NCBI GenBank assembly: GCA_964016885.1
Contig: CAXHJY010000121.1
Coordinates: forward strand, 1-37,343
Direction: 5' to 3'
Length of the DNA stretch: 37,343 nt
Origin: Eledone cirrhosa
Lineage: Eukaryota
This document shows positions 21,523 to 21,686 of the stretch, one piece after another. The translations under genes and the position numbers were made by a program. The notes beneath the pieces were generated by a model. The model had not been told where the DNA came from and did no database searches. It saw nothing but the letters and a program-made list of their open reading frames with translations. Every line of letters starts with the position of its first letter. The first letter of the stretch is position 1.

Positions 21523-21585
21523 AAGAAAATTTCTTGAAAAAAAAAAAAAAAAAAAAAAATTTAAATTAACTTACTTAAATTTTCA

Positions 21586-21665
21586 CTCCAACTAATTAGT
21601 TTCTGCAATGGGATAAAGACAGTTACGTAATGAACTGTTGAGAATTTCATTGCGTCATCAGGGAG
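21586..21665 (-). ncRNA. Candidate type I hammerhead ribozyme with long stem II
   Basis: Minus strand: CTCC-CTGATGA-c-GCAATG..(ACAGTT/AACTGT)..CATTGC-a-GAA-ACTAATTAGT-T-GGAG. Confidence 0.65.
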
Positions 21666-21686
21666 GTCATTCTCAGCCGAGTCTCC

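What the first reader, a model, noticed from the sequence alone, without database searches (positions are those of the whole stretch)
21523..21686. 165-bp island containing a hammerhead ribozyme fold with palindromic stem III and extended stem II
Seen on minus: intact CUGAUGA (21661-21655) and GAAA (21603-21600); stem I CUCC/GGAG; stem II GCAAUG/CAUUGC capped by a further ACAGUU/AACUGU hairpin; self-complementary ACUAAUUAGU stem III; predicted cut after GUU (21590/21589); then a long U tract. Known: minimal type I hammerheads with palindromic stem III mark Penelope pLTRs and may cleave as dimers. Caveats: C-A mismatch at the base of stem II and only 4 bp in stem I. It may be a tiny non-coding ribozyme retroelement or a solo pLTR.
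Basis: partly seen in the sequence, partly recalled or inferred. Interest (0 to 1): 0.75.

Follow-up and report, generated by a model that had tools for sequence, protein, structure and literature searches.

The report
Pseudoknotted hammerhead retrozyme with Penelope footprints
This is a broken piece of a 553-base, protein-free jumping repeat that occurs thousands of times in this animal genome, carries a predicted self-cutting RNA with an extra knot, and is likely pasted into TA repeats by the enzymes of Penelope-type retrotransposons.

Summary
The hammerhead is real and lies at the stated coordinates. The island is not a 165-bp element: it is a truncated piece (about 160 of 553 nt) of a non-coding tandem repeat. 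A 19-nt core word has 12,089 exact copies in the genome, spread over subfamilies 70-80% alike. Insertions carry Penelope-like (PLE) marks. They end at two fixed sites 122 nt apart that run into (TA)n, and 76 of 78 classifiable head-to-head insertions use one site per arm, as do 7 of 7 copies of an autonomous PLE here. (CT)n or (ATCT)n stutters occur only at terminal site 2 (40 of 139, against 0 of 160 internal). No helper PLE sharing the repeat was found. Cleavage, expression and circles are untested. It is an animal non-LTR retrozyme, a known class, in a new variant. This scan noted the same architecture, and probably this family, on other DNA of this genome.

The parts
21521..21686 (-). Truncated copy of the 553-nt non-coding hammerhead repeat, subfamily A (unit nt 456-553, then 1 to about 63, counted from the predicted cut). 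It lacks both normal 3' end sites and the upstream promoter-like block.
21669..21675 (-). Pseudoknot 5' strand UGAGAAU (leader upstream of stem I)
21662..21665 (-). Stem I 5' strand CUCC
21655..21661 (-). Catalytic core CUGAUGA
21648..21654 (-). Conserved C, then helix II 5' strand GCAAUG
21639..21645 (-). Pseudoknot 3' strand AUUCUCA, in the internal loop of helix II
21619..21638 (-). Upper hairpin of the extended helix II (ACAGUU/AACUGU); covaries
21604..21610 (-). Helix II 3' strand CAUUGC, then conserved A
21590..21603 (-). GAAA, palindromic stem III ACUAAUUAGU and U17; predicted cut between 21590 and 21589
21586..21589 (-). Stem I 3' strand GGAG
21569..21574 (-). GUAAGU, a splice-donor-like word conserved after the cut in nearly all subfamily representatives (role unknown)
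21537..21559 (-). U run: 3' half of a length-variable A/T hairpin, collapsed in this copy
21334..21522 (.). (TA)n/(TACA)n target tract at the element's 3' side
21687..22837 (.). (TA)n/(TACA)n tract at the element's 5' side
1..232 (.). Second member of the family in the window. Minus arm 1-202 (unit nt 171-371, cut by the contig start) is head-to-head with a short plus arm 203-232 that ends at site 2 and runs into (TA)n.

Best explanation
The island is a truncated remnant of a 553-nt non-coding tandem repeat (an animal non-LTR retrozyme) that carries a predicted pseudoknotted type I hammerhead and is likely mobilised in trans by the RT-endonuclease of a Penelope-like element. SHOWN: thousands of dispersed copies, 1-5 tandem units, no ORF, covarying ribozyme fold, two fixed 3' ends 122 nt apart running into (TA)n, head-to-head arms with one end of each kind, and stutter repeats at terminal site 2. 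INFERRED cycle: tandem copies are transcribed from a promoter-like block inside the unit. Two hammerheads pair through their palindromic stem III and release a monomer, which is probably ligated to a circle (about 55%; otherwise uncut multimers serve as template). A PLE protein, probably a dimer, cuts both strands of a (TA)n tract. Each DNA end anneals to a UAUA-like site on the RNA, one at site 1 and one at site 2, and the RT often slips at site 2 before elongating. The two cDNAs run through the ribozyme and are joined head-to-head, or only one arm survives. This copy has lost the promoter block and both priming sites and has a single hammerhead, so it is predicted to be immobile.
For: Copy number: 4,343 and 12,089 exact words, controls 0. 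Unit 553 nt in tandem, longest stop-free frame 78 aa, GC 34-37%. Subfamilies align over the whole unit. Circular monomers fold better than shuffles, z -4.7 to -5.7 on the ribozyme strand (4 monomers, 25 shuffles each). Covariation. Pseudoknot: 14 D copies change GAGAA/UUCUC to GAAAA/UUUUC together, and across 7 family representatives the true partners score 42 against a mean of 30.9, reached by 8 of 5,040 permutations. Ends: of 218 distinct insertions 99 are two-armed head-to-head, of which 76 are site1+site2, 2 site1+site1, 0 site2+site2 and 21 have a clipped end; 228 of 258 classified 3' ends meet (TA)n. Positive control: an autonomous 905-aa RT+GIY-YIG PLE here shows the same rule in 7 of 7 two-armed copies with a ~41-44-nt tail in (TA)n. 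Two internal RT start sites flanking the 'tail' were shown in vitro for a PLE (PMC11167929). Stutter: 40 of 139 terminal against 0 of 160 internal site-2 copies.
Against: No autonomous PLE sharing the repeat was found among 63 PLE loci or in the flanks of 200 family loci, so the helper is unnamed. The 122-nt tail is about three times the 30-40 nt published and the 38-44 nt of the PLEs seen here. U17 is a poor cleavage base and C·A replaces the usual G-C at the base of helix II (recalled hammerhead rules). 8 of 9 Xenopus retrozyme dimers did not cleave in vitro. The circle test was inconclusive: units within an insertion differ by 1.6% against 1.25% to the nearest other insertion, and private variants were shared by all passes in 13 cases but not in 97 (subfamily A). 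In the PLE studied in vitro, priming used no homology and hammerhead cleavage was dispensable. The loci were chosen by the hammerhead 3' word or by best hits, so they are not a random sample.
Confidence: 0.8

Rival explanations
1. The unit is the pseudo-LTR/3' UTR of an autonomous PLE family not yet located, and the island is one of its 5'-truncated copies (the 'solo pLTR' reading).
For: All insertion marks are PLE marks. The genome has 10,596 GIY-YIG candidates, of which only 50 loci were fetched. Xenopus retrozymes resemble pLTRs.
Against: Upstream of the hammerhead the copies continue into another unit or into (TA)n, never into an ORF. Up to 5 cuts are crossed per arm. No protein remnant in the unit (blastx E > 0.6). 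The apparent linkages (L139, L078, L312) are independent insertions.
Confidence: 0.08
2. The element is PLE-mobilised, but the template is an uncut linear multimer, and the hammerhead is slow or protein-dependent and plays little part in spreading.
For: 242 of 296 arms read through at least one predicted cut (partly a selection effect). Only 8 of 345 post-cut anchors break within -4 to +2 nt of the cut, against about 4 expected. Hammerhead mutants did not impair PLE insertion in vitro. U17.
Against: The core, helix II and pseudoknot are kept across subfamilies 70-80% alike. Repeated 5' truncation would erode tandems unless a circle or template jumps restore them (inference). Other animal retrozymes give abundant circles.
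Confidence: 0.3
3. The repeat is a satellite-like sequence spread at the DNA level, or a SINE-like passenger of a LINE, and the TA flanks are incidental.
For: The window is mostly (TA)n and holds three LINE-type RT elements.
Against: Two fixed internal 3' ends with a one-of-each rule (p about 8e-21), no poly(A) tail, short dispersed arrays, and the same footprint in an autonomous PLE.
Confidence: 0.04

Closest known systems
Animal non-LTR retrozymes (Cervera & de la Pena 2020, PMC7229834, parts 2-4 of 6 read; Li, Clavereau & Pollet 2026, bioRxiv 10.64898/2026.07.22.740005, parts 1-3 of 5 read)
   Same: Non-coding tandem unit with one type I hammerhead per unit, GC below 50%, thousands of copies, highly paired predicted circle, co-existence with PLEs, proposed PLE mobilisation.
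   Different: Unit 520-560 nt (170-400 nt in the 2020 paper, 51-972 in the 2026 preprint). The hammerhead is of the PLE type with a two-tier helix II and a pseudoknot, not the canonical loop-loop contact. The parts read do not describe the two-end tail, head-to-head arms or (TA)n targeting. Circles are not tested here.
EN+ Penelope-like elements and their pLTR/tail (Frangieh et al. 2024, PMC11167929, parts 1-2 of 4; Craig et al. 2021, PMC8557442, passages; Arkhipova et al. 2013, PMC3846280, passages)
   Same: Partial tandems, inverted 5'-truncated arm, tail at one end only, two RT start sites downstream of the hammerhead, microsatellite bias.
   Different: No ORF. Tail 122 nt instead of 30-40. 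Both start sites resemble the TA target, whereas the studied PLE primed without homology. Stutter repeats at site 2.
Minimal PLE hammerheads (Cervera & de la Pena 2014, PMC4209133, parts 1-2 of 4; Lunse et al. 2017, seen only as cited in PMC6765202)
   Same: Type I, helix I of 4-5 bp, long helix II, extra base after A9, G10.1-C11.1, palindromic helix III suited to dimers.
   Different: A further invariant A before GAAA (equivalently a C·A at the base of helix II; U·U there is known), U17, a two-tier helix II and a leader-to-loop pseudoknot. PLE hammerheads are described as lacking tertiary contacts (PMC7761336, passages).
Pseudoknot-stabilised hammerheads (Perreault et al. 2011, PMC3088659, passages)
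   Same: A 5-7-bp pseudoknot joins the stem I side to the stem II side. About 40% of hammerheads were predicted to use one, and it is needed for fast cleavage.
   Different: Here it pairs a 5' leader with an internal loop of an extended helix II and is combined with a dimer-type stem III. It is not the helix-II-replacing pseudoknot of PMC11300833 (passages).

Membership tests
Type I hammerhead ribozyme, PLE type | Core CUGANGA ... GAAA ... UH with helices I-III | tested here: met
   H is U
Type I hammerhead ribozyme, PLE type | Short helix I, long helix II, extra base after A9, G10.1-C11.1, palindromic helix III | tested here: met
   plus an additional A before GAAA that the definition does not include
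Type I hammerhead ribozyme, PLE type | Minimal: no tertiary contact between the helix I and II sides | tested here: not met
   conserved, covarying pseudoknot
Type I hammerhead ribozyme, PLE type | Self-cleavage, as monomer or dimer | not testable with these tools
   only a weak genomic hint of breaks at the cut
Animal non-LTR retrozyme | Tandem non-coding unit with one type I hammerhead each | tested here: met
Animal non-LTR retrozyme | No ORF, GC below 50%, stable predicted circular fold | tested here: met
Animal non-LTR retrozyme | No LTR, PBS or PPT | not tested
   no terminal direct repeat other than the unit itself was seen; PBS and PPT were not searched
Animal non-LTR retrozyme | Expressed as linear and circular monomer RNA | not testable with these tools
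   needs RNA data from this organism
Non-autonomous Penelope-like element | Two fixed 3' ends with a tail at one end of inverted insertions | tested here: met
   76 of 78 classifiable two-armed insertions; tail 122 nt
Non-autonomous Penelope-like element | Partial tandems, inverted 5' arms, microsatellite targets | tested here: met
Non-autonomous Penelope-like element | Sequence shared with the pLTR of an autonomous partner | tested here: inconclusive
   none in 63 PLE loci, out of more than 10,000 GIY-YIG candidates
Solo pLTR of an autonomous PLE | The same repeat flanks an RT-GIY-YIG ORF elsewhere | tested here: not met
   0 of 200 family loci screened; a sample, not the whole genome

The most novel reading that the evidence does not exclude
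A guild of protein-free RNA circles with a pseudoknotted, dimer-gated hammerhead hijacks a dimeric Penelope RT. The enzyme primes both ends of a (TA)n break at two fixed sites on one RNA and, like telomerase, stutters on a short template stretch before elongating. It thereby writes new microsatellites, visibly the (CT)n runs of up to 57 units and perhaps part of the (TA)n tracts that fill this genome and serve as its own targets.
Probability: 0.3. Interest if true: 0.75.

Novelty: new variant of a known kind. Interest (0 to 1): 0.48.

Why it matters
What mobilises animal retrozymes has been argued from co-occurrence and pLTR similarity. Here the insertion ends themselves match those of an autonomous PLE in the same genome. 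The one-site-per-arm rule turns the two start sites found in vitro into a testable model: one RT dimer, two DNA ends, one RNA. The site-specific stutter suggests that PLE RTs, relatives of telomerase, can create microsatellites. The pseudoknot predicts a faster hammerhead than the weak minimal PLE ones and explains why Rfam misses it. The class is known, and this particular copy is a dead fragment.

Tried and rejected
Rfam: the whole-window scan was swamped by (TA)n matches to mir-297, and the island scan found no hammerhead. The generic repeat finder was swamped likewise. Sequencing runs: no RNA holder listed. Of four runs laid, two of unknown library held diverged relatives and two held nothing; none is used as evidence on expression. 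Helper search: L139 looked like a PLE ending in this repeat, but its own terminal repeat is different and the match is a separate insertion. L244/L245/L258 were a local duplication. One direct junction of a subfamily-B arm with a PLE fragment (L157) is a single case and is not relied on. Pfam PF26215 was not in the library. Circle versus linear template by shared private variants: inconclusive. Excess of 5' ends at unit nt 1-20: partly an alignment effect of the A/T hairpin. RNAalifold of the tail region was misregistered, and only the GUUC/GAAC hairpin is trusted. The site-2 part was faulty and is replaced. The U tract as a Pol III terminator or poly(A) tail was rejected because it is internal to the unit. 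Papers describing PLE stutter or twin priming: none found (other searches). Lunse et al. 2017, Repbase/Dfam and the papers' supplements were not seen and may already list this hammerhead or family.

Full report
Observation. The island sits between (TA)n/(TACA)n tracts in a window that is mostly microsatellite with inserted elements. Rfam has no hammerhead match for it, and the island alone folds no better than shuffles. The evidence therefore had to come from copies.

Copies. The window is a whole 37-kb contig of a 3.0-Gb genome. A DNA search gave 1,439 candidates, and the 40 scored were 99-100% identical. Exact-word counts are 4,343 for a subfamily-A 25-mer, 2,237 for a subfamily-D 26-mer and 12,089 for a shared 19-mer, each with a control of 0. 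The copies extend beyond the island into a 553-nt unit repeated head-to-tail, whose longest stop-free frame is 78 aa. The window copy covers unit nt 456-553 and 1 to about 63. Window 1-232 is a second member. Subfamilies A, B and C/D are 70-77% identical and align along the whole 520-560-nt unit. Four monomers folded as circles gave z -4.7 to -5.7 on the ribozyme strand and -0.9 to -6.5 on the other strand, with 25 shuffles each.

Ribozyme. In 176 distinct copies the core, the palindrome, U17, and the C and A at the base of helix II are near-invariant; the scan anchors include these positions, so part of that is selection. Helix II, which is not anchored, shows all four Watson-Crick pairs at its second position and switches at two more. 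On 16 variants 96.2% of cells pair, with 37 double changes; 0 of 500 shuffles reached either value, although 17 of 500 reached the number of covarying pairs. The palindrome forms no hairpin alone but gives a -9.0 kcal/mol self-duplex, and the monomer hammerhead fold is 2.8 kcal/mol above the free minimum. This fits dimer cleavage as described for PLE hammerheads (PMC4209133; PMC6765202 passages). An extra base after A9 is a known PLE trait. A U·U at the base of helix II occurs in active hammerheads, so the C·A is not a sign of decay, but its effect is untested.

Pseudoknot. The leader UGAGAAU (21675-21669) is complementary to AUUCUCA in the helix-II internal loop (21645-21639). Of 191 distinct copies, 155 have five or more pairs, and 14 D copies change both sides together. 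In the alignment the helix is 90.7% paired, with 2 of 6 pairs changed on both sides. Five other families with extended helix II, found in the flanks, each have their own complementary pair. Across seven representatives the true partners beat all but 8 of 5,040 permutations. Pseudoknots between the stem I and II sides are common and speed cleavage (PMC3088659 passages), but PLE-type hammerheads are described as lacking tertiary contacts (PMC7761336 passages).

Insertion anatomy. From 230 loci I obtained 218 distinct, complete insertions. The loci were best hits or the first pattern hits on one chromosome, all holding the hammerhead 3' half, so they are not a random sample. Of the 218, 98 are single arms (a few from distant families), 99 are two arms head-to-head, and 21 complex ones were set aside. 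3' ends fall at two sites, unit nt 77 and 199, both ending in TATAT-like letters; 228 of 258 classified ends run into (TA)n. Single arms use the two sites about equally (39 and 44; 15 other, the window copy among them). Two-armed insertions are 76 mixed, 2 site1+site1 and 0 site2+site2, with 21 having a clipped end (p about 8e-21). 242 of 296 arms cross at least one predicted cut and 79 cross two or more. A distant 459-nt family shows two ends 105 nt apart (read from the hit table). At terminal site 2, 40 of 139 copies carry expanded (CT)n, up to 57 units, or (ATCT)n; 0 of 160 internal copies do. No comparable expansion was seen among 143 terminal site-1 copies. Slippage next to (TA)n after insertion is not fully excluded.

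Who moves it. The genome has 10,596 GIY-YIG candidates and long RT or RT+GIY-YIG ORFs. Neptune-like families (CX2-5CxxC linker, as described in PMC8557442) end in (TA)n with 38-40-nt tails (read by eye). A young 905-aa family has one site per arm in 7 of 7 two-armed copies, with a ~41-44-nt tail. Two internal RT start sites that bound the tail were shown in vitro, with a predicted protein dimer, no need for hammerhead cleavage and no target homology (PMC11167929). No PLE sharing this repeat was found in 63 PLE loci or in the flanks of 200 family loci. Mobilisation by a PLE is therefore inferred from the footprint, and the helper is unnamed. A GUUC...GAAC-CAC hairpin just after site 1 is shared by several non-coding families and is a candidate recognition signal.

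Circle or line. Shared-variant tests did not decide. Breaks at the predicted cut are only weakly enriched: 8 of 345 anchors within -4 to +2 nt, against about 4 expected. Circles are documented for other animal retrozymes (PMC7229834) and would explain how tandems persist, so I put the circle at about 55%.

Verdict. This is a dead fragment of an abundant animal non-LTR retrozyme, which amounts to a non-autonomous PLE-type element (bioRxiv 10.64898/2026.07.22.740005). The class, the tail and hammerhead pseudoknots are each known. The combination of a pseudoknotted dimer-type hammerhead, a 122-nt tail, the strict one-site-per-arm rule and the initiation stutter was not in the papers found. Supplements, repeat libraries and Lunse et al. 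2017 were not seen. Earlier notes of this scan describe the same two-armed architecture in sister families, and probably this family, elsewhere in the genome. I read them after the end analysis and before the pseudoknot test, and they are not independent support. Those notes call the genome cephalopod; I did not test that.

Noticed in passing
window 28150-28399 (+), core at 28205: A second, unrelated small element with a minimal type I hammerhead (GUCA/UGAC stem I, CUGAAGA, GUCACA/UGUGAC helix II); copies recur in several fetched loci.
   Followed up: partly
window 34838-36473 (+): 3' UTR and end of a Neptune-like PLE family. Near 36283 it has a hammerhead-like core reading UUGAAAA (U3/A8 type) before a palindrome-like stem III. 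Several Neptune-like families here share such variant cores.
   Followed up: partly
window 9713-13528 (-), 14706-18733 (+), 19486-21333 (+) and 25049-26369 (-): LINE-type elements inserted in (TA)n: an AP-endonuclease+RT element, a long RT element with a C-terminal zinc motif, and two 97%-identical copies of a third RT element in opposite orientation around the island.
   Followed up: partly
window 5179-6265: A 1,087-bp almost perfect palindrome (97.6%), partly similar to the UTR of the element at 9713-13528.
   Followed up: no
L119, L230, L218, L093, L110, L132, L141, L150: At least five more non-coding hammerhead families with two-tier helix II, different palindromic stems III and the same pseudoknot. 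Several share a GUUC...GAAC-CAC hairpin after their first end site.
   Followed up: partly
unit nt ~300-330 in all subfamilies (alignment A1): Conserved CACGTG plus CAAT-box-like block about 150 nt upstream of the hammerhead, like the motifs upstream of PLE hammerheads here; candidate internal promoter.
   Followed up: no
L157:1233-1358: A subfamily-B arm joined directly, without TA, to a fragment of a PLE ORF; possible template switch between helper and passenger RNA.
   Followed up: partly
L311-L323: Very young, abundant autonomous PLE with many intact ~900-aa ORFs, tandem and inverted copies and (TA)n targets; a good candidate for biochemistry.
   Followed up: partly
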